The notes: generated by a model not told the origin, from the letters alone. Shown: positions 27,404 through 42,119, counted from the first letter of the stretch. The stretch: 42,177 nucleotides of DNA from an uncultured Gammaproteobacteria bacterium (GCA_964358085.1 CAYHNU010000002.1:1-42177); one strand, 5' to 3'. Numbers and translations: made by a program.

Positions 27404-27553
27404 TTGTATACAACTGGAGATGCTTATGCACTTATTAACTGGAGCAATGAAACTATCCACAAAGTTATACACAAGACTGTCCCCTGGCTGGCTGGTGGCG
27501 GTTATCAACTTATCCACAAGACCTACTACGGATGCTACTAGTTAAGAGAGAAT
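27404..27553. other. oriC-type DnaA-box cluster in the dnaA-dnaN spacer
   Basis: One perfect TTATCCACA (27510-27518). Near-consensus boxes: TTATCAACT (27502-27510), TTATACACA (27465-27473), CTATCCACA (27453-27461), TTATGCACT (27424-27432), TTGTATACA (27404-27412). Confidence 0.8.
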
Positions 27554-28663: not shown

Positions 28664-28664
28664 G

Positions 28665-29663
28665 TTACAACTTGACGGCCGGAAGGAGGAGGACAACAGT
28701 GCTGGGAATTGAGGAGAGTCCAAAGAAAAAAGATCCCTTGATATTGTAATATGGCACCAGCAGACTTGCTTTGGCGTCGAGGCGATATTCTAACTCTATG
28801 GATTGGATGGTAATTTGGGAGACTTCTTCGAGAATAGCAGAAGACTCGACAAGAGCCTTTCCCGTGAGCTGGATAATCTTGCCTTGTTTTTGGTCAAGCA
28901 GGCCCATGGCCTCTTTTTGGGAGATAGTAGAATATTCTTTGGGTGAGGAGAGATCGATTCCTTGGGGGTGGGCGACTATTTTAATAATTTGATTTTTCTG
29001 ACCAACGGAAACAACGAGAGGCGGTTCGGTTTGATCCCCAACCCGCACAGGAATATCATTAACCGACTGGGAAAAAGGGACACTAATTACAGCCGCGTCA
29101 TGGATATTTGTTTCAATAAGTTCTGCCCCCTCCTCTTTAAAAAAAACCAATTCGTTTATGTCGGTTTTAAAATCTTTCCAATTTTCAAAACTGTTTACAA
29201 AATCTTGGGCCGATTTGACCGCCACCTCGGCGGTGGGGGCGGCTTTTCCAGTATAGCTTTCAGGGCTCTGGAAACTATCAACCTGAAAGGTAAGAATTTG
29301 GTTAGGAGAGTCAATAAACAAGGCGCCTTTTTTGTCCTTGCTTAACCAAAAATTAGACCGGCCTGACACTGGCTGGAGATCAAAATAGCGGGCTAATTTT
29401 TGAGACTGGCCAAACAAGTCGAAGGAGGCTTTGTTTTGGGAAAACACGGGAAGGGATTGCGGGACGGAAGGAAACCCAACTTCGTCGGCGAGACTGATTT
29501 TTTGATAAGTAGTATTTCTAACTTCGGGGTTGGTAGACTCAATCCCCGGTCGGGGAGAAGTTGGAGGGAGAGATTTTTTTACGGAACTCATGAGATAAAC
29601 GGCGCTGATTATTACAAGTGCGATTAGTCCCAAAAGCAATTTTTTGTTTCTGGTGAGTTTCAT
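28665..29663 (-). CDS. TM-anchored extracytoplasmic hypothetical protein (last gene of the secretion-like operon)
   Basis: N-terminal TM helix (LLLGLIALVIISAVYL). ATGA overlap with the upstream 890-aa gene. Confidence 0.55.
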   Translation of the reverse strand: MKLTRNKKLLLGLIALVIISAVYLMSSVKKSLPPTSPRPGIESTNPEVRNTTYQKISLADEVGFPSVPQSLPVFSQNKASFDLFGQSQKLARYFDLQPVSGRSNFWLSKDKKGALFIDSPNQILTFQVDSFQSPESYTGKAAPTAEVAVKSAQDFVNSFENWKDFKTDINELVFFKEEGAELIETNIHDAAVISVPFSQSVNDIPVRVGDQTEPPLVVSVGQKNQIIKIVAHPQGIDLSSPKEYSTISQKEAMGLLDQKQGKIIQLTGKALVESSAILEEVSQITIQSIELEYRLDAKASLLVPYYNIKGSFFFGLSSIPSTVVLLLPAVKL

Positions 29664-32332
29664 GGCCCTACGGAGCCTCCTTCGTCTTTAGCATAACATG
29701 TGTTGGGTACGCTTGAAGTGTTTACTCCCAGCTGGAATCCACTGACCGTCCAAGGCGGAACGTAGGTGCGGATATCCCAACTTTTAGGAAACAGCTCGTA
29801 ATGTAAATGAGTGCCGGTGGAGTTTCCGGTGCTGCCCATGATTCCAATTTGAGTTCCGGCTGTGATTTGAGAACCGGGGGAGAGGCTGGCTATTTGAGAC
29901 AAGTGGGCATAAAGAGTTTGAAATCCCTCGGGAGATATAATTTTGACACAGTTGCCGTATTTGGGGTCTCCACAATTAGTGGAAACAGTGCCGTCGTGAG
30001 CGGCATAGATGGGGGGGGCAATAGGGTCGTGGATGTCGATGGCGTTGGAATTGTTGTCACAGTGTGTCCAGGTGCGATCAACGCCACAAAAAGGACCTTG
30101 GGTGAGGTCCCCAACGGTGGGCCAACAGCGGGGATAGGCGCCACCCGGACCGGGAATACCGACACCCCCGGCTGTATTTTGAGGAACAACTAGGGCAGAG
30201 GAGTTGATAATAAAAAGAATTAAGGCAATGCCGACGGGAATACTTAGGGCAATAACAAGAAGCGGGGTGGCAATTTCGGTGGCTACCAGGCCGACTGCGG
30301 CGGTAGAAGCCGAAGTAATGGCGTTACCAAGTTTGGTTAGAGCCCCTGTAATGCCGCCGGCGCTCTTTATGCCGGCTCCTGCTAATCCGCCGCCGAGAAG
30401 TCCTAAAGGAAGGGATACGATTCCGGTGATTGCGGCAGCACCAAGGCCGACCAGAGAGCCTCCTATAATAATGCTCATACCAGCCAAAAACTTAAAGATA
30501 TCAGTGGCAGTTCTTTTGGCCCACTTCCAGATCTTGGGTAAATTGGCGACGACGAAGCCAATGACCGCGCCGATAATTGTGCCCACTACCGGAGCAACAG
30601 CAGTTCCGGCGGCGGCTCCAGTTCCAGCTCCTCCAACGGTAGTCAGGGCTGTTGTGGCTGCTCCGGTACTAGCTGCGAGAGCTGGCGGAGCGGCGCCGGC
30701 GGCGAGTGCGCCAGTCACGACAGGAAGCGCGGGGCCCGAAAAGGCAACCGGGACAATACTCATCCCGGCAGGGGCCATTGCGGTTCCAGTTCCAACTGTT
30801 TGTCGAATGATGTTAAAAGCGGTGTAACCACTCAGGGACGTTTGTCCAATTGGAACCTTTCCGACCATGTAGGAGATTTCACCAAACAAATGTTCCACAC
30901 CGGCCGGAGTAAACATTAAACCGGCCTGATTGACTCCAACTCTCCCAATGTTTACCATCCAGCCATTGGCTATAGCTTGACTAAAAGCAGAAGCATAAAA
31001 GGTGGGAAGAGTGCCGGAGACAAGGTAGCCTGCATAAATTGACGGTGCGGCGCTTGTGGCAGACAGACCAGCACCAACAATGGCTCCAGCAACGGCTCCA
31101 GTTCCCATTCCCAACCCTTCTCCAATTCCTGAACTGGTAAATTTATTCCAAGCATTTTTGGCCTGATCAGACAATCGTGTTTTGGCTTCGTCTTGCAAGT
31201 AGTCAAGAAGGGGGTTCCGATTTCCGTGACTGTCGCGGTAGCTTTGTTCCTGATTGGCCGGTTCATCGTAGGCGCTTTCATATGTTTCAAGTAGCAATTC
31301 CCAATTTGCTTCGGTTTGCTGGGCCGGTGGAACACGAGATAAAAATTCAACTGATTTTTGAGTGATTTCTTTTAGTGTTTCTTGTTTTTCTTCCCGCCTT
31401 TTTTCTGGAGAGTCCGACGGGTCGCCGGCGTTTCTACTCACAGAATATGAAATTAAAGGGTAGCTTTGTTCGACCATTGTTTGGGCTTGAACTTTTCCGA
31501 CAACGGTGGCCAAAGATTGCTCTACCAATTCTGTGCCAGTGGCGTTGAGGCTAAAGTCGGCTACAAGTTGAGCCAATTGTTGGACAGGTAAAGTAACGGT
31601 GGTTTTACCTGCGGCCTCTAGTTCCGTTTCTAGTGTGGAGAGAAGGTTTGAGAATGTCTTAATAGAGGCGGTTGGATTGACAATCTTTTCCGCTATTATC
31701 CTGTCCGCAAGGGCTTCTTTCCCTGCTGGGAAGATGTTTTCAGGAAGGCTAGTAATAGTTTGGTGCCAAAGATTGTTTACGCTTGGGTCGAGTGTGATTG
31801 CGATTTCTACTAGCGGGGACAAGGCGACACCTGGGGAGAGGGCGCTTATTTGTTCGAGGGTTTCTTTGGGGCGGAGAATGATCTCGTTTTCCAAATCAGG
31901 CTGAAGGTAGGCGATAATTTGAGACTCTTCTGGAGAGGCAGTAGAAAGGTTCTTGCGGTATTCTTCTAGGCGGGCCTGAACTAGTTGGTGGATGGTGGGC
32001 TTATGAGCGATTTTAGCTGCGGCCTCTTGGCGTTTTTCTTCACAGGCTTTGTTATAAGCATCAACTAATTCATCTAGGTGGGGGGGGAGGGAGGCCGTTT
32101 TGTCTTCCTGGAATTTCTTGAGAAGGCGCAGATTTAGGGCCAGGAGTTTTTGGTTTCGATCGGCGATTTCTAAAACCGGCTTGAACTCTTCTTGCGTGAG
32201 CAGTTTGGCTAGATTTTCCCAAACATATTCTTCAGCTTGGATAACAGTCATTCCCCGGGGGGCCTGGGGCGGTTTTTGCACCAAGTTTAAAAAAATATTT
32301 TCAATGGCGCTGATCTGGTCTGGGGTAAACAT
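29660..32332 (-). CDS. 890-aa fusion protein with a helical cytoplasmic N-domain, a Gly/Ala-rich polytopic membrane core and a C-terminal M23 peptidase
   Basis: C-terminus IDIHD...YAAHDG...LYAHLS...GSTGNSTGTHLHYEL (M23 HxxxD/HxH motifs). The middle 300 aa or so are hydrophobic and G/A-rich. Confidence 0.75.
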   Translation of the reverse strand: MFTPDQISAIENIFLNLVQKPPQAPRGMTVIQAEEYVWENLAKLLTQEEFKPVLEIADRNQKLLALNLRLLKKFQEDKTASLPPHLDELVDAYNKACEEKRQEAAAKIAHKPTIHQLVQARLEEYRKNLSTASPEESQIIAYLQPDLENEIILRPKETLEQISALSPGVALSPLVEIAITLDPSVNNLWHQTITSLPENIFPAGKEALADRIIAEKIVNPTASIKTFSNLLSTLETELEAAGKTTVTLPVQQLAQLVADFSLNATGTELVEQSLATVVGKVQAQTMVEQSYPLISYSVSRNAGDPSDSPEKRREEKQETLKEITQKSVEFLSRVPPAQQTEANWELLLETYESAYDEPANQEQSYRDSHGNRNPLLDYLQDEAKTRLSDQAKNAWNKFTSSGIGEGLGMGTGAVAGAIVGAGLSATSAAPSIYAGYLVSGTLPTFYASAFSQAIANGWMVNIGRVGVNQAGLMFTPAGVEHLFGEISYMVGKVPIGQTSLSGYTAFNIIRQTVGTGTAMAPAGMSIVPVAFSGPALPVVTGALAAGAAPPALAASTGAATTALTTVGGAGTGAAAGTAVAPVVGTIIGAVIGFVVANLPKIWKWAKRTATDIFKFLAGMSIIIGGSLVGLGAAAITGIVSLPLGLLGGGLAGAGIKSAGGITGALTKLGNAITSASTAAVGLVATEIATPLLVIALSIPVGIALILFIINSSALVVPQNTAGGVGIPGPGGAYPRCWPTVGDLTQGPFCGVDRTWTHCDNNSNAIDIHDPIAPPIYAAHDGTVSTNCGDPKYGNCVKIISPEGFQTLYAHLSQIASLSPGSQITAGTQIGIMGSTGNSTGTHLHYELFPKSWDIRTYVPPWTVSGFQLGVNTSSVPNTCYAKDEGGSVGP

Positions 32333-32337
32333 AATAA

Positions 32338-34701
32338 TTAAGGCAGTTTTACTGTTTCAGCTACTAGACGGACTTTGGCTTGTTCTGACTGTTGGGTAAG
32401 AATTTCGGAAGGTTTGGTGGTAATTAATTTGTGTTCGTCGGGGGAAGCGACGACACGAATGGCAACGTGGTTGTTGCCGGCAAAAAAAAGGCCCTCGCCT
32501 ACCTCGCTACTTAACAGCAGATGTTTTTCTCCTTCAGATAAATAAAAGACCTGAGCGACTTTGTCGATGGCGGCAGGGGACTGCTTCATGAGGATTTGGA
32601 TACTGGAATTGGTAACGATAGCTTTGCCATAGTCGGTGGCTAGGAAATCCTCTACGTCTTGAGTGATGGTGGTTAGCCCCAGGAAATATTTGCGAGCTCG
32701 TTTGGCAATGCCGTAAAGAAAGGCAGCGGAGTCGGGGGAGCGCATGAGGTACCAGGCTTCGTCCACAATTAACAATCTCTTTTTTAAATCCCGGCGCATC
32801 TTGGTCCAAATATAGTCCAGAATAATAAAAATGGCGATGGGCTTGAGGGAGTCTTCCAGGTCGCGGACGGAAAAAACAGTAAAAGGGTTTTTTAGAGAAA
32901 CGTTACTAGGCTGGTCAATAATGCCGCGGAAACTGCCCTTAACGAATTTTTCAATGCGGTCGGCCAGGGCTCCGGCTTGGGATTCTTCCATGCCCACCAG
33001 GGCTTTGTAGAGATCTTCCATAAGAGGGGGAGGGAGTTTTTGGGTGGCAGGGTCGGGGGTAATGCCCTTCATTTTATAGGTGGCAACTAAGGCCCGGTCT
33101 AAAATGGCTTCTTCGCCAGGAGACAAAGCGCCCATAATGACTTTAAAAAGGGAGTGCAGGGAAAGGATTTTTAAGCTTAGCTCGTTTTCGTCGGAGGTGG
33201 CGGTGAGGGAGGATAGGTCGAAAGGATTTAAGCGGCAGGGAGAGTTGAAGGAAAAATTGATGTATTCACCGCCGACGGCGTCGCTAAGAGTTTTGTATTC
33301 GTTCTCGGGGTCGATGATGATTATTTCGGTGCCGAACATGAGGGAGCGGAGGATTTCCAGCTTGACCAAATACGACTTACCAGCTCCAGCCTTTGCGAAG
33401 ACGACCGTGTTCGCGTTCTCTAAACTGAACCTGTCGAAAATTACTAAACTTCCGTTATGCTCGTTTAAACCATAGAGAACGCCCTCGTTGCTGGTGAGTT
33501 CGGATGAAGTAAACGGAAAGGTGGTGGCCAGAGAGGTGGTGTCCATGTTGCGGGTGACCAGGAGGTGATCGGTACAGGCGGGAAGAGTGGTTTTGAAGCC
33601 ATCGGCCTGCTGGAGAAGGGCGGGGGCGGTGGTAATAAGCAGAGAGCCTAAAGTGCTGGAAACTTGTTTGGTAACCTGATTGAGCTCACTTTCAGATTTA
33701 GCAGGGATGGTGACATACAATCCAAACTGGAAGAAGCGTTCGGCCCCCTTGACCAGCTGGTCTTGAAGAGTCAGGGCGTCTTCCAATTTGGCCTGGGTGC
33801 TGGGGTCGACCACCCGGCCGCGCTGTAAATCTGTAGAGATTTCGGCTTCCATTTCGGCGATTTTGCGGCGTAGATCGTCTAGGGTGGACTTGCTTTCCAC
33901 AGGATAGACGAACATGGAGATATTTAATGAATGGTCGAAGTTGATGAGGGGGGCCAGCCAATTGGCGGTGACAAATCTAGGATAGCCTGCCACAAAGAGA
34001 GAGCGGAAGTACCAATCGTCGATTTTGAGAGTGTTGAAATCAACTGTAATTGACTGGGGGGCGATAGTGGGGACGGAGGTGGCCTTCGTCTCGATTTGGG
34101 AACGGTGGTAGGAATTGAAGAAAAACTGGATGAGCTCGGGGGAAGTAAGTTGACGGGCGCGCAGGCCGATGCGGGCTAATAATCTGACCAGATGGTCGCG
34201 CTTGGGAGATAGAGCCAAGGCGGCGCGTTCCAGGATTTCGACTTGGGGTTTGGGAAGAGCTTTTTTCTTGATTAAAACGGAAAAGCTGGAAGAAATACCA
34301 AGTTCCAGAGAAGAAAAAGGAATGGCCACATAAAACTTTTTGTCCAGGACGTTGCCTTGGCGGACGACGGTTTTGATAAAATCGCGATATTTGGCGAGCT
34401 GATCGTGGAGAAGAGGATTGGCAGTCTTTCCTAATTGAAGGTCCAGAAGAGTGAGATAATCAGAAATATCCTTCTGTTTGGAAGAGACGACGATTTGAAT
34501 GGAAAAAGTGAGGGAATTGAGAAGTTGGGCATAGGCGTAGATGGTGGCGTCCTGCTCTGTTTCGGAAAGCAGACCAAAATTGAGAGCGGACACCTGGAGG
34601 ACTAAGCAGGCGGAGCCGTCTTTAAGGACGACTAAATCCTGGACAATGTCCTGAACGTCGAGATGGTCTTGGGTTGTAGACGAAATGAGTTTGGAATTCA
34701 T
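32338..34701 (-). CDS. VirB4/TrbE/CagE-family type IV secretion ATPase
   Basis: 787 aa. Walker A FAKAGAGKSYLVK, Walker B LLIVDEAWYL, and an N-terminal VirB4-type domain (LVVLKDGS...LQVSALNF.L.SE.EQD). Confidence 0.85.
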   Translation of the reverse strand: MNSKLISSTTQDHLDVQDIVQDLVVLKDGSACLVLQVSALNFGLLSETEQDATIYAYAQLLNSLTFSIQIVVSSKQKDISDYLTLLDLQLGKTANPLLHDQLAKYRDFIKTVVRQGNVLDKKFYVAIPFSSLELGISSSFSVLIKKKALPKPQVEILERAALALSPKRDHLVRLLARIGLRARQLTSPELIQFFFNSYHRSQIETKATSVPTIAPQSITVDFNTLKIDDWYFRSLFVAGYPRFVTANWLAPLINFDHSLNISMFVYPVESKSTLDDLRRKIAEMEAEISTDLQRGRVVDPSTQAKLEDALTLQDQLVKGAERFFQFGLYVTIPAKSESELNQVTKQVSSTLGSLLITTAPALLQQADGFKTTLPACTDHLLVTRNMDTTSLATTFPFTSSELTSNEGVLYGLNEHNGSLVIFDRFSLENANTVVFAKAGAGKSYLVKLEILRSLMFGTEIIIIDPENEYKTLSDAVGGEYINFSFNSPCRLNPFDLSSLTATSDENELSLKILSLHSLFKVIMGALSPGEEAILDRALVATYKMKGITPDPATQKLPPPLMEDLYKALVGMEESQAGALADRIEKFVKGSFRGIIDQPSNVSLKNPFTVFSVRDLEDSLKPIAIFIILDYIWTKMRRDLKKRLLIVDEAWYLMRSPDSAAFLYGIAKRARKYFLGLTTITQDVEDFLATDYGKAIVTNSSIQILMKQSPAAIDKVAQVFYLSEGEKHLLLSSEVGEGLFFAGNNHVAIRVVASPDEHKLITTKPSEILTQQSEQAKVRLVAETVKLP

Positions 34702-35519
34702 GCTTGGGCTTTGATGAGAATAGGGTCAATAATCTGGTTTTTGACACTGAGGGTAAGGGAGGCAAAATGCAGGCCTTCTTTTTCGGCAATGAGAGTATAA
34801 GTGCCGGTCGGGAGGGGGGTGGCAGTCATAAACTGGCCGAGCTTGTTGGAGCGCAGGGCCCGGACGGGCAAGCCGGCGGCATCGGATAATTCTAAGATGA
34901 CACCCTCTAAATATGATCCGGCGGGATCGAGAACGAGGCCGGTGAGAAGGTTGGGATGCTCGGGAGGGGGGACCGGGTTACTAGTTATTAGTTCATGGTT
35001 CATGGTAGCTGTGGGTTTAGGCAGAGGGGAGACTGGTGGTTGTGAACGTAGAATTGGCGATTGGGGGTTGAGCGTTGAGGGCTGAGGGTTTGGTTGAATA
35101 GCAGAAAAAGCAAGGTTGGGGTGGGAGAAGATTTGGGAGAAACGAGCGAAGAGCTGACTTTCGATAATGTCGAGGGGAGTTTTTTTGGTAGGCGGGTTAG
35201 TTGGTTCATGGTTCATGGTAGCCGGGGGTGGGGGGGTTTCGGACCAGTGGAACTCCGTGGGAGAATAAATAGCTTTAATAAATGCCATGATCCATTGGGA
35301 AAAAGGGCGGCCGGAGACCGGAACGAAGGCCAACATGACTCCCGTTAAAGCAGCCAAGCCCATCATGGGCCATTTCAAGATAAGGGGGAGGGGGAGACGA
35401 TAGATAACGACAGCGACGGCCACGCCGCCGGCCAACTGAAAAAATTGCTTGAGGGTCATATCGCCCACAAGGTGAAATTCATAAGAAGAGATATTCTGTG
35501 GTACAGGGTGTTGGTTCAT
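34698..35519 (-). CDS. PrgI-family (VirB3-like) membrane protein fused to a carboxypeptidase-regulatory-like beta-sandwich
   Basis: MNQHPVPQNISSYEFHLVGDMTLKQFFQLAGG plus 2 TM helices (PrgI pattern). C-terminus GLVLDPAG..LEGVILEL.....P.....SN..G.F......TGTYTL.AEKEG. ATGA overlap with virB4. Confidence 0.7.
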   Translation of the reverse strand: MNQHPVPQNISSYEFHLVGDMTLKQFFQLAGGVAVAVVIYRLPLPLILKWPMMGLAALTGVMLAFVPVSGRPFSQWIMAFIKAIYSPTEFHWSETPPPPATMNHEPTNPPTKKTPLDIIESQLFARFSQIFSHPNLAFSAIQPNPQPSTLNPQSPILRSQPPVSPLPKPTATMNHELITSNPVPPPEHPNLLTGLVLDPAGSYLEGVILELSDAAGLPVRALRSNKLGQFMTATPLPTGTYTLIAEKEGLHFASLTLSVKNQIIDPILIKAQA

Positions 35520-35547
35520 GGGCAGTTTGTAACTTTATGTTACTGCG

Positions 35548-35580
35548 TGAACGATTTTGTGCAAGCTACAGGCTTTTTCA
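35548..35580. repeat. 33-bp direct repeat, left copy (TGAACGATTTTGTGCAAGCTACAGGCTTTTTCA)
   Basis: Identical to 36859-36891. Contains the stop codon of the ATPase gene. Confidence 0.9.
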
Positions 35581-36804
35581 CAAAATCAAAGTGTCTTTCC
35601 AAGAGCGGTTGATTGTTTCGTGGGGTAGAGGAGATGAGTGGTCGGTGTTGGAGATTAAGGCTATTGTTTTTATTTGTTGTTTGAGTTCTTTTTTAAGGCG
35701 TAGTAAATTACTACCGAATTTACTAAAGATAGTTTGTACTCCTTTGATCTCGATTAAGTGCAGCCTACCTTCCAATTCAATAACGAGATCAATCTCTAGT
35801 TTGTCTGGGGTACGCAGATAATATAAAGTTGGTGATAGGCCGCGATTGTAAAATCGTTTGAGAGTATCAATAATCACAAAAGTTTCAAACAATGGGCCAA
35901 AATATGGACTAGATAGTAGAACTTCGGAACTGTGTAACCCCATAAGGTAAGTAGCTAGTCCGGTGTCGACAAAGTAAAGTTTTGGTCTTTTTACCAATCT
36001 TTTGCCGATGTTTTTGTAGTAAGGATAGAGTAGGTAAACCTGGTGACTGGCTTCCAGAAGCGATAACCAGCGTTTGGCAGTAGTATGGCTAACGCCCACG
36101 TCACTTGCCAGCCCAGTAATATCCAATATTTGACCAGTACGAGTAGCACAGATTCGTAGAAAGGTTTGAAATTGACCAAGATCACCCACTTGCTTGAGAT
36201 TGCGTATGTCTCGTTCTAAATAGGTAGCTATATAGGAACCACACCAAAAATTACGATCGACAGCAAGTTGAAGGGAGGGCTCCGGATAACCCCCCCGTAA
36301 TAATAGTTTAGATAAGTTTAAAGTTGGGATAGCGGGGCGATTGAATTTGTCGAAATTTTCTAACCATGAAGTGGGCGATAGGCTGGTGGATCCTTGTTTG
36401 GCGATTTCGGCTACCGAGAGCGGTAGGAGAGAAAAGACTGCGGCTCTACCAGCTAAAGACTCCCCCACACCCTGCATGAGCGCAAAATTTTGTGAGCCGG
36501 TGATAAGCCATTGCCCGGGATCTCGGTGGTTGTCAATAGCTGATTTGATATACGACAACAGCTCGGGAACATATTGAATTTCGTCAAGGATAACTGGCAT
36601 TTTTAACCGCCCAAGAAATCCCCGGGGATCAGTTTTGGCATAATCCTGTTGATCTGGATCTTCCAGGCTCACATAACTATGGGTTGTGCCAAATAAATTT
36701 TTTAATAGAGTTGTTTTGCCTGATTGGCGTGGACCAGTGAGAATTAGAGCAGGAAAGGTTCGAATAGCCTGTTTGAGACTGGAAGAGATGGTTCTAGGCA
36801 GCAT
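35578..36804 (-). CDS. AAA-family ATPase with C-terminal DUF4143 (COG1373-type)
   Basis: Walker A LILTGPRQSGKTTLL, Walker B VILDEIQY, and a C-terminal region typical of DUF4143 proteins. TTGACA-16 nt-CATAAT (36839-36812) lies 7 nt upstream of the ATG. Confidence 0.8.
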   Translation of the reverse strand: MLPRTISSSLKQAIRTFPALILTGPRQSGKTTLLKNLFGTTHSYVSLEDPDQQDYAKTDPRGFLGRLKMPVILDEIQYVPELLSYIKSAIDNHRDPGQWLITGSQNFALMQGVGESLAGRAAVFSLLPLSVAEIAKQGSTSLSPTSWLENFDKFNRPAIPTLNLSKLLLRGGYPEPSLQLAVDRNFWCGSYIATYLERDIRNLKQVGDLGQFQTFLRICATRTGQILDITGLASDVGVSHTTAKRWLSLLEASHQVYLLYPYYKNIGKRLVKRPKLYFVDTGLATYLMGLHSSEVLLSSPYFGPLFETFVIIDTLKRFYNRGLSPTLYYLRTPDKLEIDLVIELEGRLHLIEIKGVQTIFSKFGSNLLRLKKELKQQIKTIALISNTDHSSPLPHETINRSWKDTLIL

Positions 36805-36858
36805 AATGGTAATTATGGCCTGTCTTTTGAACTTGTCAAGTTCTAATTCCAGGGGACA

Positions 36859-36891
36859 TGAACGATTTTGTGCAAGCTACAGGCTTTTTCA
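36859..36891. repeat. 33-bp direct repeat, right copy
   Basis: Identical to 35548-35580. Confidence 0.9.
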
Positions 36892-36979
36892 TGGTTCGAC
36901 TGCGCCCTTCGATTTCACTCAGGGTCTTCGACTCACCATCTTCGACACAAAAATTTGGGAGAGATAGTATAATTCGGGT

Positions 36980-39943
36980 ATGGGCGAACCAGAAGAAAAA
37001 TCTGTTGAGGTAAAGCCTTTGGCTAGTTATAGCGAGGGGGAGAGAGAGGAGGCCGTTAAGAAGGGCTTGCATTTTTCGGCCGAAAGGGAAGCCGCAAGGG
37101 TTGTTGCGGAGTTGTCATCAGATCAACGCGGCGATCAAAAAGAAGTGGCCAAAGCGATTGCCAGAGCAGCATATACGCCAGGTGGCAGCTTAGGAGACGA
37201 TGGGGTTGCGAGAGCCATGGCTTTGAAGATAGCTGAAGTAATAAGGGACGGAGGTTTGGAACAATCTACTGGTGAGAAAATTTTGAGCTTGGCTGGTGAA
37301 ATTGAAGCTAGAGCAAAAGCGTTGGTACAAATCTCGGTTCCTGCAGGTAGCGTGCCAAAACGCGACGAAATGGTTCGTCCAGCAGACATAGCAGAAGATG
37401 AATCTATGAGAGATTATCTTAGGAAGCCATTGCCCCCAGAGCCAGCAGAAGCGGAGCATGTTGAGGGGGAGTGGAGAGAGGTAGCCAGTGACGAGCAGGA
37501 CAACGTTCGACCACCCGTAATATCAGTGGCGGATGTGGTTGTCGGGGCGACTTTAGCAGAGGCGGTTGACGCGGCTCAGCGGAAAGGGGGGAAAAAGACA
37601 AGGCCAGCGGAATCACCAGAACCTGAACAGAAACCTGCTGCTGGATCCGGAGAAGTGAGGGAAACTAAAAGGGAGGCTTTTGATTGGGAGAAAAACGAAG
37701 CGGAACTAATGAAAATCGTTGACAAAGAGAAGGGCGGTAGACCGTTCTCATCAAGCCGGGCAGCGGAATTGACAGGCGAAAGAGATGCTTATTGGGAGGA
37801 ACACAAAGGGGAGCATATAACCGCCGAAGATAAAAATGCGGCGGGGAATTTGATTGATGACCAGGTTAGACGTTACGATTCAGACGGATTGGTGCCGGGG
37901 GCGAAACCAGGGGATCCGCTGCAATTATTCTTGGAAGACGTGGACAGAAAGATAGGGGTTTATACGAACGGAAGTCAAAAAGATCCCGTAAAAGCCAGTT
38001 GGTGGAGGGGGGTTAGGGTTAATGTTGAACAAAGGTGTTTAAGAGCAGAGTTGAGTCTTAGGACAAAAATTCCCGGGGGAGAGGCAGAGGAGGTGGGAGA
38101 AAGAATAAAAGAATTGGGTATTGAGTCAAAATATCTGGTTTGGGGAAGAAACAAAGATGCGACAAAGGGTAGGTGGAACCAGCTGGCTGCCAGGCATACG
38201 CAGTGGCTGATGGAGAACGATCCTGGTTTGAAAGATGGAGTTGAAGCAAGGAAACGGGCCGAGGGGGTGGGAGGGCAAAGGTTTGGGGGTGGGTTTGAAA
38301 ACTTTCCGGTCAGCCCGCCACCAGCACATTATGTGGCTATCTTTAGGGAGGGAAGGTATGGTTCATTTGAAAAACAGTGGGGGGACAAGGTCAAGTTTCT
38401 AAGCGTGCTGAACGAAGATGACAGATTGGCCTGGTGTTATGCAAATATGGGGGCTTTTGCAAATGGCGTTATTCAAACAAAAGACTGGAAAGCCGTAGTA
38501 GATTTATGGTTGGGAGATATCAAAGATTCGGCCAATTTGGTTAAGGCAGGTAGAGAGAAAATGGTTGGAATTAAAGAAACAGAAAAAGATTTACGGGCCA
38601 TGATGGCTCTGTCGGCTTCTGCCCGGGCAATGGAGGGGTCAGCTGGATCGGCTGCAACATATGTAAAACTTCTTACGGTTGATCGAGATGGCGACCTGGA
38701 CAAACAAGACACATGGGCTGAGTTTTTATTGCATGATGACCCCGAGAAATATTGGAGAGTTGTTTCCCAACCATTAGTCAAGCATTACTACTACAAAATT
38801 CTGGCTCAGGCGGGAATAAGTCTAGACAATGAGTCTGGTCAGACAATAGACGGAAAGCTTAGAAAGGTAAGTAGTTTTAAGGTAAATAGTGATACGGCCT
38901 TGTCAAGTGAACTGTTCGGTTTTCTTAGGCAGACAGAGGGGGCGAAATATAAAGGAGGTTTTGAACCATATATCTCAGACGGATTGCTTGTAACTGACGA
39001 TGAGGCTTTTGTTTCGGCACAGGCGGAATTAGGTGTAGACGAATCTGCCCGTTGGTCAGCTGCCAGGCTCGCTTGTGATGCTTTTATGGTCGACAAATTG
39101 ACCAGATGGGAAAGTGAAACAAGGAAAGATAAAGTTAAATATCCAGATAAAACCAACATAAAGCCGTACGTGGGTTGGGGGGGAGATCCTCTAATATTGG
39201 TTCTTCAACCCTCGTTCCTTTCTAGAGTTATTAAGAAGGTCTATTCAAAAGAGGATAAGGCTATCATGGACATGACAGATAACGCTTTCAGGCCTGTGGA
39301 TATTTTCGATGGACTCAAGGGAACAGATGTGGAACCGCTTCCTATTTCGATGGTGGGTCACTTAAAAGGGTACGCTCGATATAATGATGCCTTGTGGCAG
39401 TTTTTGGGTGGGTCTAGGGCGGCTGGTATTCCTCAATGGACAAACGATACTATGGCTAAAACTCTGCCGGCGATAGGTGAGCTATTGGATCAAGTGTATG
39501 GAGGAGCTGGCAAGAAAGACGTTGATGGCAAAACCGACAACACTGGGAAGCAGGTGGTGGGAGCCATGATGGCTAGGATTTTGGAATGTAAAGCGTTGGC
39601 TACGGCAGTAGAGTCTGCTAGACCAGGGTTTAAAGACAATTTAAGAATTTTGTTTAATGTTGGTGATCCTAAAGAAGCCAGGCCGTTTTTGGAAGTAGAA
39701 AAATTTATTTGGGGACCCGATCTTGATTCCAAGAAGGGTTTTTTGGCATCTTTAGTGGGGGGGAGAACCCGGTTTATACTTAAAGACAATAAATACGGAG
39801 CTGAAACAGCATTAAAAAATACATGGGAGATATTGAACTCCAACGATCAAGATCCTAAGGGTAGGGGGAAAGCGGCGACACTTAATAGGGTAGGATTTCT
39901 TCTTGATGTAGCTCAAGCCTTGGCGAAAAATCAGAAAAGATGA
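36980..39943 (+). CDS. 987-aa hypothetical protein with no recognisable domain, TM helix or signal peptide
   Basis: Uninterrupted 2.96-kb ORF. TATAAT (36968-36973) lies 6 nt before the ATG. Acidic low-complexity N-terminal third, Trp/Tyr-rich remainder. Confidence 0.7.
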   Translation: MGEPEEKSVEVKPLASYSEGEREEAVKKGLHFSAEREAARVVAELSSDQRGDQKEVAKAIARAAYTPGGSLGDDGVARAMALKIAEVIRDGGLEQSTGEKILSLAGEIEARAKALVQISVPAGSVPKRDEMVRPADIAEDESMRDYLRKPLPPEPAEAEHVEGEWREVASDEQDNVRPPVISVADVVVGATLAEAVDAAQRKGGKKTRPAESPEPEQKPAAGSGEVRETKREAFDWEKNEAELMKIVDKEKGGRPFSSSRAAELTGERDAYWEEHKGEHITAEDKNAAGNLIDDQVRRYDSDGLVPGAKPGDPLQLFLEDVDRKIGVYTNGSQKDPVKASWWRGVRVNVEQRCLRAELSLRTKIPGGEAEEVGERIKELGIESKYLVWGRNKDATKGRWNQLAARHTQWLMENDPGLKDGVEARKRAEGVGGQRFGGGFENFPVSPPPAHYVAIFREGRYGSFEKQWGDKVKFLSVLNEDDRLAWCYANMGAFANGVIQTKDWKAVVDLWLGDIKDSANLVKAGREKMVGIKETEKDLRAMMALSASARAMEGSAGSAATYVKLLTVDRDGDLDKQDTWAEFLLHDDPEKYWRVVSQPLVKHYYYKILAQAGISLDNESGQTIDGKLRKVSSFKVNSDTALSSELFGFLRQTEGAKYKGGFEPYISDGLLVTDDEAFVSAQAELGVDESARWSAARLACDAFMVDKLTRWESETRKDKVKYPDKTNIKPYVGWGGDPLILVLQPSFLSRVIKKVYSKEDKAIMDMTDNAFRPVDIFDGLKGTDVEPLPISMVGHLKGYARYNDALWQFLGGSRAAGIPQWTNDTMAKTLPAIGELLDQVYGGAGKKDVDGKTDNTGKQVVGAMMARILECKALATAVESARPGFKDNLRILFNVGDPKEARPFLEVEKFIWGPDLDSKKGFLASLVGGRTRFILKDNKYGAETALKNTWEILNSNDQDPKGRGKAATLNRVGFLLDVAQALAKNQKR

Positions 39944-39944
39944 T

Positions 39945-41672
39945 TTATTCTCCCACGGTTGGCGGGGTGTCCGGCATTTGACCGCGAGGGCTTTGAGTAG
40001 CCGCGGCGGGAGCTCCAGGAACTCTGGTTCCAAGTCTAGTTGTCCAGGCTTTCCCGACATCAGTAGCAACATTGACACTGCGGAGACCAAAGGCGAGAGG
40101 ACCCGTGAGGGCTTCTCCAATAGCCCCACCATATTTAAATGCGGGGATCTTGAGGGCGTCGCGGATCATATCCGCTATTTTTGGAGTGAGTGTAAAAATT
40201 ACAAAACCCATAGCAAGTGAGATAAACGTACCGGTTTCGGCGCCCATGAAGGGGAGATTGAGTTGAGTACCTCCGAAAGTATTAAAGGTGTTTAAGTGGA
40301 GATAAAATGTGTTTGTAAACCAGTTTCCAGATAAAATATTCTGAATAACTAACATGATTGGTATAGTGGCAAAAACAGAGGCGTTGGCGATTAAGTTTCG
40401 GAGCCACGGGCCGAAGCCTTGTTGGCCGGGGATGAGATCGAGCATGATTTGGAGAGGGGCGATGATTATTTGCAATGTCAGCATGACATAAGCTTTGACC
40501 ATCATCCAAAATATTTTCCATAGAGTAATTAAGAAAATTATTGCTACTATAATGGCAAAAATAACACCTATTACTATTACAACTCCGGCGACTGGGAAGA
40601 GGATAAGAGATATTATGGCGGTTAACCCTAGAACGGTGAGAATGGGCCCCAACATTTGCATGGCCATGTATTGGGAGAAACTTGTGTTGAGAAGGTTATT
40701 GATGGCATTTGGTAGATCTGAATTATTAATTATTCCCCCCAAAGACAGAAAACCGGTTATGGCGACAACAACTACATAAACAAGGTCGATGACCAGACCA
40801 GCGATGGCGAAGGAGAAAGTGACTAACAACATTGTGATAATTAATTTTGGGATCATGGTTTGGAGGGAAACGACGGTTTGGGGATTAATTTTGACACGGA
40901 ACATAATCAAGAAACCGGAGGCGACGAGAAGGATGACCATAATGAGGTAAGACATATTGCGAGTGGCGGTCCAGAGAGCGCGGACGGCGCTGTTGGTATT
41001 GTTTCCACCAAGCCCGCTGAATCCATATCCTTGGGCATAGGCCGGCTGGACACCAGTGCTGATGTCTAAGATTCGACTGGCCATATATTTGATTTCGTTG
41101 ACTCCAGAAACAGGAGGATTGGAATACAAGGTGGAGACGCCACCGGCCAATAGGCCAGCAGGACCAAGTTTAGAATAATCGGCCAGGGTTGGTGTCTGAC
41201 CGGACTGAGCTATACCGAGGATATCATTAATGACATTAAAAAAGTCCAGAAGTTGGAGGGGGTTTTCGATGCCGGAGGTGGGGTTAATCATAGTGGAAAT
41301 AGAGTTGATGATCCAATTGATTTGAGCGAAGGTGTAACGCTCGCCGAAGATTTCATTTTGGTCTCCTCCTGTGACCTTGGCAGCAAACTGAGTGGGGTTT
41401 TGGTTGTACCATGGGCCGTCAACCTGGTTGGCAAAAAGAGTATCCATGCTGCCGAGAAATTGGACACAGGCGAGTTCGTCTGGGAAAAGGTTGAGATATG
41501 GACCAGTGATAGCGCAGGAGCCGACCGCGAAGACGCAGGAGGCTTCGTCTTTGAAACCGTATTGGGCATAATTGGTACAGTCGGCGGTGGCGGCGAGGGC
41601 GGAGCCAGCCGTCGCTAAAGCTATGGCTGGTAAAAGAATGAGAAGAAGCAATGTGGGCAGGAACTTTTTCAT
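39945..41672 (-). CDS. VirB6/TrbL-like polytopic membrane protein with signal peptide and N-terminal extracytoplasmic domain
   Basis: Signal peptide MKKFLPTLLLLILLPAIALATAGSALA, a soluble domain of about 200 aa, then about 8 TM helices. The call rests on architecture and context, not on a sequence motif. Confidence 0.45.
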   Translation of the reverse strand: MKKFLPTLLLLILLPAIALATAGSALAATADCTNYAQYGFKDEASCVFAVGSCAITGPYLNLFPDELACVQFLGSMDTLFANQVDGPWYNQNPTQFAAKVTGGDQNEIFGERYTFAQINWIINSISTMINPTSGIENPLQLLDFFNVINDILGIAQSGQTPTLADYSKLGPAGLLAGGVSTLYSNPPVSGVNEIKYMASRILDISTGVQPAYAQGYGFSGLGGNNTNSAVRALWTATRNMSYLIMVILLVASGFLIMFRVKINPQTVVSLQTMIPKLIITMLLVTFSFAIAGLVIDLVYVVVVAITGFLSLGGIINNSDLPNAINNLLNTSFSQYMAMQMLGPILTVLGLTAIISLILFPVAGVVIVIGVIFAIIVAIIFLITLWKIFWMMVKAYVMLTLQIIIAPLQIMLDLIPGQQGFGPWLRNLIANASVFATIPIMLVIQNILSGNWFTNTFYLHLNTFNTFGGTQLNLPFMGAETGTFISLAMGFVIFTLTPKIADMIRDALKIPAFKYGGAIGEALTGPLAFGLRSVNVATDVGKAWTTRLGTRVPGAPAAATQSPRGQMPDTPPTVGE

Positions 41673-41699: not shown

Positions 41700-42119
41700 A
41701 TTATTCAGTATTCATTACTCGGTTTTTCAGTAACTTTTGCGCTTTTGGATGATACTGGAGAAAATGCGAACGATCTCGTCGCTTTCTGATATCAATTCAC
41801 TGGTATTAATTGTGGGGAAACAGCTGGGGATTAGATCGAGCCAATACTTTGTTTCTTTGGCTTCCTTTTTAACTACCGATAATTTATGAATAACATCTTT
41901 ATTGCTCTCCGCTTCTACAGATTCTTCGAAATTTGCGCCGATGGACGTTGACGATCTGAGTAATTGATTGGTGAGAACCTTTCCGACTTTGTCGTCGGGT
42001 AACTTTTTACAAAGATTAATGGTCTTAATAACAAAGGATTTGATCTTTGTTCTGAGGCTGTTTATTTTATCTTCTTTGTCGTTCATAAACTGAATAATGA
42101 GTAATGAGGACTGAATAAT
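41700..42119 (-). mobile_element. four-helix-bundle ORF cassette bounded by imperfect 21-nt inverted repeats
   Basis: ATTATTCAGTATTCATTACTC (41700-41720) versus GAGTAATGAGGACTGAATAAT (42099-42119). 19 of 21 positions are complementary. Confidence 0.35.
41727..42086 (-). CDS. four-helix-bundle protein (23S rRNA intervening-sequence protein / Avd-like family)
   Basis: LTNQLLRSSTSIGANFEES....S..D.IHKLSVVKKEAKETKYWLDLI is the family signature. Confidence 0.85.
   Translation of the reverse strand: MNDKEDKINSLRTKIKSFVIKTINLCKKLPDDKVGKVLTNQLLRSSTSIGANFEESVEAESNKDVIHKLSVVKKEAKETKYWLDLIPSCFPTINTSELISESDEIVRIFSSIIQKRKSY

What the first reader, a model, noticed from the sequence alone, without database searches (positions are those of the whole stretch)
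28665..41672. Minimal VirB4/PrgI/VirB6-like envelope machine with a membrane/M23-peptidase fusion, directly beside oriC and without a coupling protein or relaxase
Five co-directional minus-strand genes form a type-IV-secretion-like set:
- a VirB6/TrbL-like polytopic protein with a large exported N-domain (39945-41672);
- a PrgI/VirB3-like protein fused to a CarboxypepD_reg-like beta-sandwich (34698-35519);
- a VirB4 ATPase with Walker A GAGKS and Walker B LLIVDEAW (32338-34701);
- an 890-aa protein joining a helical cytoplasmic domain, a Gly/Ala-rich polytopic core and an M23 cell-wall peptidase (29660-32332);
- a TM-anchored 332-aa protein (28665-29663).

ATGA overlaps at 34698-34701 and 29660-29663 indicate a single operon. 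Within the window I see no VirD4-type coupling ATPase, relaxase, VirB11, pilin or oriT-like repeat. It therefore does not look like an ordinary conjugative element. The function of such stripped-down sets (DNA uptake, host-cell contact or effector delivery in small-genome bacteria) is unresolved.

The island is transcribed head-on toward dnaN/oriC, which is unusual for origin-proximal core genes and hints at acquisition.
Basis: partly seen in the sequence, partly recalled or inferred. Interest (0 to 1): 0.72.

Follow-up and report, generated by a model that had tools for sequence, protein, structure and literature searches.

The report
Patescibacterial type IV secretion cluster beside dnaN
This is the ordinary, vertically inherited copy of the relaxase-less type IV secretion machine that nearly all ultra-small Patescibacteria (CPR) carry next to dnaA/dnaN, already described in 2023-2025 papers, and not a recently acquired island.

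Summary
VirB4 (NCBIfam CD1110 family, 388 bits, above cut-off), PrgI/VirB3 and the M23 domain pass profile searches. The 'VirB6-like' protein has no profile support, only polytopic topology, position and a weak AlphaFold/Foldseek top match to R388 TrwI/VirB6. The 332-aa protein stays unassigned.

The window is a whole 42,177-bp groundwater contig from a Candidatus Amesbacteria-like (Microgenomatia) bacterium. The cluster is the Patescibacteria-clade, MPF_FATA-derived T4SS described by Quinonero-Coronel et al. 2025 (no relaxase, T4CP rarely adjacent, VirB2-like pilin arrays, next to dnaA/dnaN). Wang et al. 2023 showed it is essential in Saccharibacteria.

The acquisition idea is refuted. dnaN/dnaA flank virB4 in 58 of 80 related genomes, composition is native, and VirB4 is better conserved than DnaA. 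'No pilin' holds only inside the window: a pilin gene lies just past the contig end, and relatives carry arrays there.

Extras:
- virB4 is one ORF here but split in 72 of 74 relatives.
- A 33-nt repeat-flanked defence-candidate cassette interrupts the cluster.
- A conserved slot next to the VirB6-like gene holds large, non-homologous orphan proteins.
- GC skew does not invert at dnaA in this contig.

Low novelty.

The parts
28665..29663 (-). 332-aa protein with an N-terminal TM anchor. It is always paired with the peptidase gene and sits in the position that PrgL (VirB8-like) holds in pCF10. Its fold is unresolved.
   Evidence: ORF; TM at aa 6-32. No Pfam or NCBIfam hit. The family occurs in 24 related loci, always directly after the M23-type gene. 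The AF2 model has pLDDT 46.5 and is unusable. hhalign against PrgL is negative.
29660..32332 (-). 890-aa protein: a TM-less N-terminal ~400 aa, a Gly/Ala-rich hydrophobic core (aa ~400-740) and a C-terminal M23 peptidase. It sits in the position of the PrgK/VirB1-type wall hydrolase.
   Evidence: Peptidase_M23 at aa 762-850, E 1.5e-22. Composition and TM scan. The gene order matches prgI-prgJ-prgK-prgL of pCF10. Homologues occur in 37 related loci.
29783..30049 (-). M23 metallopeptidase domain of the 890-aa protein.
   Evidence: Pfam match. The HxH (HLH) and YAHL motifs are conserved. The canonical HxxxD is replaced by a conserved His 7-9 residues before the Asp. A conserved CWP motif is also present.
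32338..34701 (-). VirB4 ATPase (787 aa), unsplit: a TrsD/TraC-like N-domain plus the P-loop ATPase.
   Evidence: NCBIfam CD1110 family, 388.5 bits, above the 325 cut-off; TrsD hit at aa 9-64. Pfam P-loop_TraG E 2.3e-31. 25% identity over 581 aa to pCF10 PrgJ, E 5e-41. 52-87% identity to more than 578 Patescibacteria stretches. One ORF here, but split in 72 of 74 relatives.
34698..35519 (-). Extended PrgI/VirB3 (273 aa): two TM helices, a Pro-rich linker and a C-terminal beta-sandwich-like domain.
   Evidence: PrgI 37.8 bits, above the 27 cut-off; CarboxypepD_reg 24.7 bits, below its cut-off. TM at aa 26-70. Adjacent to virB4 in 71 of 80 loci. Fused in frame to VirB4 in L041.
35548..36891 (-). 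Inserted cassette: an AAA_14/DUF4143 ATPase gene (35578-36804) bracketed by perfect 33-nt direct repeats. It is not a T4SS part.
   Evidence: Repeat D1 at 35548-35580 and 36859-36891. Pfam AAA_14 plus DUF4143. PADLOC candidate defence family PDC-S01, E 1.4e-107. Its own promoter-like site lies at 36839-36812.
36980..39943 (+). 987-aa orphan protein, TM-less and highly charged. It is convergent (1-nt gap) with the VirB6-like gene and divergent from prgI. It occupies a conserved but sequence-variable slot.
   Evidence: No Pfam, NCBIfam, PADLOC or PDB hit. 114 representatives share only the C-terminal ~540 aa. An opposite-strand ORF of at least 379 aa (at least 528 aa in 21 of the 23 loci) lies right after the VirB6-like gene in 23 of 23 loci, plus L086-L088. 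Most of these ORFs are mutually non-homologous.
39945..41672 (-). 575-aa candidate VirB6 analogue: signal peptide, a ~210-aa helical exported N-domain and at least 6 TM helices.
   Evidence: Hydropathy. AF2 model pLDDT 78.6, all-helical. The top four Foldseek PDB hits are TrwI/VirB6 of R388 (E 0.16-0.35, prob 0.89-0.98, TM 0.39-0.45). No profile support. 231 homologues, all unannotated.
41727..42086 (-). Four-helix-bundle (23S rRNA IVP family) gene. It is a sporadic small insert and not a T4SS part.
   Evidence: Pfam 23S_rRNA_IVP and TIGR02436. It appears at varying positions in relatives.
26036..28663 (+). dnaA (26036-27403) and dnaN (27554-28663), with three DnaA boxes in their spacer (27453-27518). 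This is the conserved neighbour, convergent with the T4SS operon (1 nt between stop codons).
   Evidence: Translations; DnaA boxes; junction sequence; synteny.

Best explanation
The locus is the Candidatus Amesbacteria (Microgenomatia) copy of the chromosomally fixed, Patescibacteria-clade type IV secretion system. This system derives from monoderm MPF_FATA conjugation machinery.

Shown here:
- A canonical-length VirB4 motor is translationally coupled to an extended PrgI/VirB3 membrane anchor.
- It is followed, in the same order as prgI-J-K-L of pCF10, by a membrane-embedded cell-wall peptidase (M23 here) and a TM-anchored exported protein.
- A divergent polytopic VirB6-like protein lies upstream.
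- Just beyond the contig end lie a large secreted protein and VirB2-like pilin gene(s).
- The whole set is core, vertically inherited and conserved next to dnaN/dnaA.

Inferred:
- VirB4 hexamers docked by PrgI energise assembly of a VirB6-based channel and a VirB2-type pilus across the monoderm envelope.
- The M23 enzyme opens peptidoglycan, either the cell's own or the host's.
- The machine serves host-cell contact and translocation of a non-conjugative substrate, most likely protein export. Import of host nucleic acid or nucleotides is the main alternative. Relaxase-driven conjugation is not its role.

The cytoplasmic motor evolves more slowly than DnaA, whereas the envelope-exposed parts diverge very fast. 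This fits a host-interface role.
For: Identity of the parts:
- VirB4, PrgI and M23 pass profile searches.
- VirB4 aligns with pCF10 PrgJ, and the gene order matches prgI-J-K-L.

Taxon and conservation:
- VirB4 is 52-87% identical to more than 578 stretches, nearly all from Microgenomates or Patescibacteria MAGs. The closest is Ca. Amesbacteria GW2011_GWA1_47_20, with DnaA 84% and YidC 86% identical.
- dnaN/dnaA flank virB4 in 58 of 80 loci.
- Composition is native.
- VirB4 is 74-84% identical where DnaA is 59-61%.

Cluster extent:
- A pilin, a 695-aa and a 605-aa protein lie just outside the window.
- In relatives the cluster runs SpoIID | pilin array | large secreted protein | VirB6-like | variable ORF | PrgI | VirB4 | wall hydrolase, with no relaxase or T4CP.
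- The best structural match of the VirB6-like protein is TrwI/VirB6.

Literature:
- The same system, its lack of relaxase and its dnaA/dnaN proximity are described in PMC12102498.
- It is essential for epibiotic growth, and has the same dnaA-dnaN-convergent layout, in S. epibionticum (PMC10633639).
Against: - No function has been shown for any Patescibacteria T4SS, and the substrate is unknown (PMC11665869).
- The VirB6 assignment rests on weak structural statistics (E 0.16, TM about 0.43) and fails all profile tests.
- The 332-aa protein could not be linked to VirB8.
- The first Zn-ligand motif of the M23 domain is non-canonical, so activity is not certain.
- A T4CP may exist elsewhere in this genome. 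Most Patescibacteria encode one, and two relatives have one inside the cluster. 'T4CP-independent' is therefore unproven.
- I did not build a VirB4 phylogeny.
Confidence: 0.85

Rival explanations
1. It is a recently acquired or decaying integrative conjugative element. The genes would be a remnant island inserted next to dnaN that has lost its relaxase and coupling protein.
For: - The operon is transcribed towards dnaN, which is an unusual orientation.
- No relaxase or T4CP is present in the window.
- Small selfish cassettes (DUF4143/PDC-S01, four-helix-bundle gene) lie inside the cluster.
Against: - The same position and orientation are found in 58 of 80 species-level relatives and in Saccharibacteria.
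- There is no integrase and there are no flanking att-like repeats around the cluster.
- Tetranucleotide composition is indistinguishable from the rest of the contig.
- VirB4 is under stronger conservation than DnaA, with intact Walker motifs.
Confidence: 0.03
2. It is the same conserved machine, but it works as an importer. Like H. pylori ComB or the archaeal Ced system, it would take up host DNA, RNA or nucleotides to feed a cell that cannot make nucleotides.
For: - There is no relaxase.
- VirB4 gives weak hits to the Ced DNA-import ATPases CedB and CedD (E 5.7e-12 and 1.8e-3, far below cut-off).
- This role has been proposed in the literature, because competence (comEC) is dispensable while the T4SS is essential in S. 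epibionticum (PMC11665869; PMC12857230).
Against: - There is no direct evidence.
- Sequence similarity is far higher to conjugative MPF_FATA VirB4 (CD1110, 388 bits) than to Ced (45 bits).
- Pilin arrays and fast-evolving exposed parts fit contact or export equally well.
Confidence: 0.2
3. It is the same conserved machine, but it translocates nothing. It would only build a VirB2-type pilus or adhesive structure and locally remodel the wall for attachment to the host.
For: - Tandem arrays of 5-9 divergent pilin genes occur in relatives.
- A wall hydrolase is always present in the cluster, though its domain varies: M23, NAGPA or CHAP.
- No T4CP is adjacent.
Against: - VirB6-like channel components and a large TM-less cluster-encoded protein suggest that a substrate exists.
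- Type IV pili already provide adhesion and motility in Saccharibacteria (PMC10633639).
Confidence: 0.12

Closest known systems
Patescibacteria-clade T4SS (Quinonero-Coronel et al. 2025, PMC12102498; S. epibionticum SEML1_0004-0019, Wang et al. 2023, PMC10633639)
   Same: - MPF_FATA-type VirB4 with an adjacent extended PrgI.
- A TrsD-like module.
- VirB2-like pilin genes nearby.
- A large membrane protein with a C-terminal wall metallopeptidase after virB4.
- No relaxase and no adjacent T4CP.
- The cluster is convergent on dnaA-dnaN.
- Chromosomal and vertically inherited.
   Different: - Here (and in two other Amesbacteria loci, L005 and L041) VirB4 and the TrsD-like module are one ORF, whereas 72 of 74 relatives and S. 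epibionticum have two.
- The Microgenomatia VirB6 candidate is not detectable by profiles. The paper calls VirB6 'scarce' in this class.
- No NTF2-like protein could be recognised.
- An opposite-strand variable orphan gene and a defence-candidate cassette sit inside the cluster.
pCF10 Prg/Pcf conjugative T4SS of Enterococcus faecalis (MPF_FATA prototype)
   Same: - Gene order prgI (VirB3) - prgJ (VirB4, 25% identical over 581 aa) - large TM-anchored wall hydrolase - small TM-anchored exported protein.
- A polytopic protein lies upstream.
- Monoderm envelope.
   Different: - No PcfC coupling protein, relaxase, oriT or PrgB-type adhesin.
- The hydrolase carries M23 rather than SLT plus CHAP.
- VirB2-like pilins are present nearby.
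- It is a chromosomal core locus rather than a plasmid.
Relaxase-less T4SSs used for other purposes (H. pylori ComB DNA uptake, archaeal Ced DNA import, B. pertussis Ptl, Brucella VirB)
   Same: They show that a VirB4-based machine can work without a relaxase, and in some cases without a T4CP. They provide functional precedents for import or protein export.
   Different: These are diderm or archaeal architectures with no close sequence relationship (CedB hit only 45 bits against a 700 cut-off). None is a core, origin-proximal, essential system.
R388 TrwI / VirB6 (PDB 7O3V, 8RT9, 8RTD)
   Same: It is the best structural match of the AF2 model of the 575-aa protein. Both are polytopic helical proteins of a T4SS cluster.
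   Different: - The match is weak (E 0.16-0.35, TM 0.39-0.45, 13-14% identity).
- The window protein has an extra signal peptide and a ~210-aa exported helical N-domain.
- No sequence-profile relationship is detectable.

Membership tests
Patescibacteria-clade T4SS | VirB4 of MPF_FATA type whose closest relatives are Patescibacteria VirB4s | tested here: met
   NCBIfam CD1110 family at 388.5 bits, above the 325 cut-off. 52-87% identity to more than 578 stretches, nearly all in Microgenomates or Patescibacteria MAGs. 25% identity to PrgJ. No phylogenetic tree was built.
Patescibacteria-clade T4SS | PrgI/VirB3 homologue adjacent to virB4 | tested here: met
   PF12666 at 37.8 bits, above the 27 cut-off, with an ATGA overlap with virB4. 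Adjacent in 71 of 80 relatives.
Patescibacteria-clade T4SS | TrsD-like (VirB4 N-domain-like) module next to VirB4 | tested here: met
   Present as the N-terminal ~210 aa of the single VirB4 ORF (TrsD hit at aa 9-64, E 1.4e-4, below cut-off). It is a separate ORF in 72 of 74 relatives and is annotated TraC-like in L086 and L088.
Patescibacteria-clade T4SS | VirB2-like pilin gene(s) (PF18895) near virB4 | tested here: met
   Not inside the window. The C-terminus of a PF18895 protein (28.1 bits, above the 26.6 cut-off) lies on overlapping contig L002, beyond the window end. Arrays of up to nine genes lie at the same place in relatives (at least five in loci that show the whole array; some arrays are cut by locus ends).
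Patescibacteria-clade T4SS | No relaxase in the neighbourhood; T4CP usually not adjacent | tested here: met
   None is found in the window, in L002 or in L086-L088. A T4CP elsewhere in the genome cannot be tested, because only this contig is available.
Patescibacteria-clade T4SS | Chromosomal position near dnaA/dnaN (Microgenomatia, Paceibacteria) | tested here: met
   The dnaN stop lies 1 nt from the stop of the last cluster gene. The same neighbourhood occurs in 58 of 80 loci.
Patescibacteria-clade T4SS | Required for epibiotic growth | not testable with these tools
   Shown only for S. epibionticum by Tn-seq (PMC10633639).
Conjugative MPF_FATA T4SS (pCF10 type) | Coupling protein (VirD4/PcfC) in the transfer region | tested here: not met
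   No T4CP domain is found in any scanned ORF of the window or of L002. A T4CP-like gene is present in the cluster of only two relatives, L008 and L035.
Conjugative MPF_FATA T4SS (pCF10 type) | Relaxase and oriT | tested here: not met
   No relaxase family hit. The repeat scan of 28000-42177 finds only the 33-nt cassette repeats.
Conjugative MPF_FATA T4SS (pCF10 type) | VirB1/PrgK-type hydrolase with SLT and/or CHAP domains after virB4 | tested here: not met
   The gene in that position carries M23 only, and BLASTP against PrgK is not significant. It is a positional and functional analogue, not a homologue by this test.
Conjugative MPF_FATA T4SS (pCF10 type) | VirB8-like NTF2-fold protein (PrgL/TraM/TcpC) | tested here: inconclusive
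   The 332-aa protein holds the PrgL position. However, hhalign is negative, the family has no Pfam or PDB hit and the AF2 model is unusable at pLDDT 46.5.
VirB6/TrbL family | Match to VirB6/TrbL/PrgH sequence profiles | tested here: not met
   The window protein gave no Pfam or NCBIfam hit, and 0 of 48 family members hit TrbL. hhalign against PrgH gave probability 0.1. The profile search against PDB sequences found nothing.
VirB6/TrbL family | Polytopic (at least 5 TM) protein structurally similar to VirB6 and encoded in a T4SS cluster | tested here: inconclusive
   At least 6 TM helices. The top four Foldseek PDB hits are TrwI/VirB6 chains, but with E 0.16-0.35 and TM 0.39-0.45. The family is present in at least 24 related clusters.
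Integrative conjugative element / genomic island | Integrase, flanking att repeats, deviant composition, patchy distribution among relatives | tested here: not met
   No integrase. No repeats flank the cluster. Tetranucleotide r is 0.884 against a null of 0.890 +/- 0.026. The position is conserved in 58 of 80 relatives.
Peptidase M23 (LytM type) | Pfam match plus the Zn and catalytic motifs HxxxD and HxH | tested here: inconclusive
   Pfam 80 bits, above the 28.7 cut-off. HLH and YAHL are conserved, but HxxxD is replaced by a conserved His 7-9 residues upstream of the Asp. Activity is plausible but unproven.

The most novel reading that the evidence does not exclude
The slot tail-to-tail with the VirB6-like gene and divergent from prgI (p987 here, 36980-39943) may encode a lineage-specific T4SS substrate, effector or host-specificity factor.
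- The slot always holds a large, TM-less, signal-less, highly charged orphan protein.
- That protein is replaced by non-homologous proteins between lineages.
- Its turnover, like that of the exposed VirB6-like, M23 and 332-aa parts, might be favoured by the conserved lagging-strand (head-on), origin-proximal placement of the cluster.
Probability: 0.15. Interest if true: 0.6.

Novelty: already known. Interest (0 to 1): 0.25.

Why it matters
The Patescibacteria T4SS is a real open problem. It is near-universal in a huge radiation of ultra-small symbionts and essential in the one species tested, yet it has no known substrate. This locus adds no new kind of system. Its peculiarities (no relaxase, no adjacent coupling protein, dnaA/dnaN proximity) are already published.

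What this analysis adds is incremental:
- A candidate, profile-invisible VirB6 analogue for Microgenomatia.
- The observation that the M23-type hydrolase and the 332-aa protein move as a pair.
- A conserved variable-gene slot that could point to substrates.
- A quantified contrast between an ultra-conserved motor and hypervariable exposed parts.

Tried and rejected
- **VirB6-like and 332-aa families, sequence level.** Profile searches against PDB sequences found nothing. hhalign against pCF10 PrgH and PrgL found nothing. Per-member Pfam scans found no TrbL or VirB8 signal.
- **Homologue searches for the 332-aa protein.** They returned only 3 proteins even with a 25-sequence profile. The AF2 model was therefore poor (pLDDT 46.5) and its Foldseek hits are meaningless (TM about 0.14). 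The VirB8 question stays open.
- **M23 protein against PrgK.** BLASTP was not significant.
- **p987.** No Pfam, NCBIfam, PADLOC or PDB hit, even with a 55-sequence profile. Neither a family HMM nor hhalign detects the positional analogues in other loci. I therefore do not claim they are one family.
- **Coupling protein in disguise.** No Walker A motif in p987, so this was rejected.
- **Compositional island.** Rejected.
- **DnaA-box enrichment across the whole window.** Not significant: 9 found against 9.5 expected. Only the local trio in the dnaA-dnaN spacer is notable.
- **Promoter and terminator scans.** Not enriched over shuffles.
- **Genome-wide T4CP or relaxase search for this organism.** Not possible, because the window is the whole contig.


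Full report
**1. What is in the sequence**

The window is an entire 42,177-bp metagenomic contig, named Hain_H41_01um_R3_797_length_42177 (ENA ERZ1292624). The region 24-28.7 kb carries jag/khpB, yidC, rnpA, dnaA (26036-27403, +) and dnaN (27554-28663, +).

Minus-strand ORFs start one nucleotide after the dnaN stop:
- 332 aa (28665-29663);
- 890 aa (29660-32332);
- 787 aa (32338-34701);
- 273 aa (34698-35519).

Three more genes follow: a DUF4143 AAA gene (35578-36804, -), a 987-aa gene on the opposite strand (36980-39943, +) and a 575-aa polytopic gene (39945-41672, -). The 'five co-directional genes, one operon' are therefore a tight four-gene operon plus a separate fifth gene.

**2. Profile tests**

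| Protein | Result |
|---|---|
| VirB4 (787 aa) | NCBIfam 'VirB4-like conjugal transfer ATPase, CD1110 family', 388.5 bits (cut-off 325), aa 12-749; Pfam P-loop_TraG E 2.3e-31; Walker A AKAGAGKS and Walker B LLIVDEAW intact; 25% identical over 581 aa to pCF10 PrgJ |
| PrgI (273 aa) | PrgI above the Pfam cut-off; C-terminal CarboxypepD_reg-like match below cut-off |
| 890-aa protein | Peptidase_M23 at aa 762-850, E 1.5e-22. HxH and YAHL motifs conserved; canonical HxxxD replaced by a conserved His 7-9 residues before the Asp |
| 575-aa protein | No Pfam, NCBIfam or PDB-sequence hit for the protein or its family |
| 332-aa protein | No Pfam, NCBIfam or PDB-sequence hit for the protein or its family |

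An AlphaFold2 model of the 575-aa protein (48-sequence alignment, pLDDT 78.6) is all-helical, with a signal peptide, a ~210-aa exported N-domain and at least 6 TM helices. Its top four Foldseek hits among 350,542 PDB chains are TrwI/VirB6 of the R388 T4SS. The statistics are weak: E 0.16-0.35, probability 0.89-0.98, TM 0.39-0.45. I treat it as a probable VirB6 analogue, not a demonstrated homologue.

The 332-aa protein could not be modelled (pLDDT 46.5).

**3. Surroundings**

No T4CP, relaxase, VirB11, integrase or pilin is found among the 28 larger ORFs of the window that were scanned. The contig simply ends, however. An overlapping Logan contig (L002) continues past 42177 with a 605-aa protein, a 695-aa protein and the C-terminus of a PF18895 T4SS_pilin protein.

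Relatives with long contigs (L086, L087, L088) show this layout:
SpoIID | 8-10 tandem genes, most matching PF18895 | one or two large secreted proteins | VirB6-like -> <- large orphan | small variable inserts | PrgI | (TraC/TrsD-like) VirB4 | wall hydrolase.

None of these has a relaxase or T4CP. Two relatives (L008, L035) do carry a 730-aa T4CP-like gene inside the cluster.

**4. Relatives and synteny**

The best 80 are 52-87% identical and come almost entirely from Microgenomates or Patescibacteria MAGs. Several carry mislabelled titles. The closest is Ca. Amesbacteria GW2011_GWA1_47_20, with VirB4 87%, DnaA 84%, DnaN 80% and YidC 86% identity.

dnaN and dnaA lie within a few kb of virB4 in 58 of the 80 loci. 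Most of the remainder are contigs truncated just after virB4. Two arrangements exist:
- A, as in the window: PrgI-VirB4-M23-p332 convergent on dnaN-dnaA.
- B: M23-p332-PrgI-VirB4 upstream of, and co-oriented with, dnaA-dnaN.

In all 50 loci with enough flank, virB4 is transcribed towards dnaA/dnaN. In about 32 of them the GC skew inverts at dnaA, which places the T4SS genes on the lagging strand. S. epibionticum has the same convergent layout: dnaA+, dnaN+, recF+, then SEML1_0004-0013 on the minus strand.

Tetranucleotide composition of 28665-35519 correlates with the rest of the contig as well as random blocks do (r = 0.884 against 0.890 +/- 0.026). The acquisition hypothesis is therefore refuted.

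**5. What is known**

Quinonero-Coronel et al. 2025 (PMC12102498) report the following:
- A monophyletic Patescibacteria VirB4 clade nested in MPF_FATA, present in 2,407 of 3,035 genomes.
- PrgI, TrsD and VirB2-like pilin arrays nearby.
- Almost no relaxases, and T4CP genes rarely adjacent.
- Proximity to dnaA, dnaN, rnpA and rpmH in Paceibacteria and Microgenomatia.
- VirB6 'scarce' in Microgenomatia, and VirB8 almost confined to ABY1.

Wang et al. 2023 (PMC10633639) showed that the T4SS genes, including the pilins and the peptidase and lysozyme genes after virB4, are essential for epibiotic growth. Reviews state that the function is unknown, with effector delivery or nucleic-acid import as candidates (PMC11665869; PMC12857230).

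**6. Mechanism**

Shown:
- The gene order PrgI-VirB4-hydrolase-small anchored protein is collinear with prgI-J-K-L of pCF10.
- The M23 gene and the 332-aa gene move together in both arrangements.
- In L041, PrgI and VirB4 are a single in-frame ORF. This places the C-terminal domain of PrgI in the cytoplasm.

Inferred from established T4SS biology:
- PrgI docks the VirB4 hexamer at the membrane.
- The VirB6-like protein forms the channel base.
- The M23 enzyme opens peptidoglycan.
- The pilins polymerise on this platform.

I commit to a host-contact and translocation machine that is not conjugative. My rough split is about 0.4 protein export, 0.2 nucleic-acid import and 0.12 pilus or adhesion only, with the rest unknown.

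Conservation is strikingly mosaic. VirB4 is 74-84% identical where DnaA is 59-61%. Even against the closest relative (DnaA 84%), the VirB6-like protein is 37% identical, M23 33% and p332 28%. This fits exposed parts under diversifying pressure.

**7. Additional observations**

- virB4 is one ORF in the window, L005, L041 and L087 (all Amesbacteria). It is split into a ~210-aa TrsD/TraC-like ORF plus the ATPase ORF in 72 of 74 relatives.
- The DUF4143 gene is bracketed by perfect 33-nt direct repeats (35548-35580 and 36859-36891). It matches PADLOC candidate defence family PDC-S01 at E 1.4e-107. Without it, the prgI/p987 spacer would be about 149 bp, similar to relatives. In relatives, that spacer also hosts HepT/MNT, Fic and four-helix-bundle genes.
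- An opposite-strand ORF of at least 379 aa (528-1365 aa in 21 of the 23 loci) lies immediately tail-to-tail with the VirB6-like gene in 23 of 23 loci, plus L086-L088. These proteins have no TM segment, no signal peptide, about 15% K+R and about 16% D+E. None of the ten tested has a Pfam hit above its gathering cut-off. Most pairs share no similarity, even by family HMM or hhalign. The window's p987 has 114 representative relatives that share only the C-terminal ~540 aa.
- GC skew on the + strand is +0.1 to +0.33 over nearly the whole window, falling to about zero only between roughly 5.5 and 11.5 kb, and does not invert at dnaA. This differs from most relatives. 'Beside oriC' is thus supported by dnaA/dnaN and a DnaA-box trio, but not by skew.

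**8. Verdict**

Novelty is low. The variable slot and the VirB6 candidate are modest leads.

Noticed in passing
window 35548-35580 and 36859-36891: Perfect 33-nt direct repeats (TGAACGATTTTGTGCAAGCTACAGGCTTTTTCA) bracket the AAA_14/DUF4143 gene. This makes a 1,311-bp cassette inserted between prgI and the 987-aa gene. The gene matches PADLOC candidate defence family PDC-S01 (E 1.4e-107). Two Logan contigs break exactly at this repeat.
   Followed up: partly
window 1-42177 (dnaA at 26036-27403): GC skew of the + strand is strongly positive (+0.1 to +0.33) on both sides of dnaA and never inverts. L005, L009 and L023-L025 behave the same way, whereas about 32 other relatives invert at dnaA. Either the origin is not at dnaA in this lineage, or the skew has another cause.
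   Followed up: partly
window 27453-27518: Three DnaA-box-like 9-mers (CTATCCACA, TTATACACA, TTATCCACA) lie within 66 bp of the dnaA-dnaN spacer. Across the whole window the motif is not enriched (9 found, 9.5 expected).
   Followed up: partly
window 36980-39943; L008-L088 equivalents: A conserved slot sits tail-to-tail with the VirB6-like gene. It always holds a large, TM-less, highly charged, Pfam-orphan protein on the opposite strand, but the occupants are mostly non-homologous between lineages.
   Followed up: partly
window 32338-34701; L005-L084: virB4 is a single 787-aa ORF here and in other Amesbacteria (L005, L041, L087). It is split into a TrsD/TraC-like ORF plus an ATPase ORF in 72 of 74 relatives. 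In some relatives (L008, L017, L022) the two ORFs lie only a few nucleotides apart; in L017 they are in the same reading frame, separated by a single in-frame stop codon.
   Followed up: partly
L041:9242-13996 (Ca. Amesbacteria GW2011_GWA1_47_20); L088:18012-20037: L041 has a 1,584-aa ORF that joins PrgI, the beta-sandwich domain and VirB4 in one frame. An Intein_splicing plus LAGLIDADG intein interrupts it next to the Walker A motif (after VirB4 residue ~443; Walker A is at ~431-438). A VirB3-VirB4 fusion was reported as absent from the published dataset. L088 VirB4 also carries an intein.
   Followed up: partly
L006, L009, L005, L041 versus the window: VirB4 is more conserved than DnaA and DnaN (for example 84% against 59% and 56% in L006). 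The VirB6-like, M23 and 332-aa proteins fall to 28-37% even against the closest relative, whose DnaA is 84% identical.
   Followed up: yes
L008:6247-8439 and L035:6384-8570: These are 730-aa T4CP-like ATPases (TrwB_AAD_bind, TraG-D_C, Walker A GKTGTGKS). They are encoded inside the cluster, divergent from prgI, in two relatives only.
   Followed up: partly
L087:18783-19620; L024:5262-8150: The hydrolase domain encoded in the cluster varies between lineages. The gene directly after virB4 carries M23 in the window and NAGPA in L087. In L024, a CHAP-domain protein is encoded upstream of PrgI.
   Followed up: no
window 3928-4764 and 5443-6027: A PEGA plus SH3 exported protein and a second, canonical small M23 peptidase lie about 23 kb from the cluster. 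In S. epibionticum, a PEGA-domain protein (SEML1_0005) is part of the essential gene block next to the T4SS.
   Followed up: no
L002:272-4181; L055, L056, L081, L022 equivalents: The 695-aa and 605-aa proteins just outside the window correspond to a single 800-1,300-aa secreted protein in relatives, located between the pilin array and the VirB6-like gene. The only domain hint is a weak SLT-like hit (E 0.019) at aa 512-541 of the 695-aa protein.
   Followed up: partly
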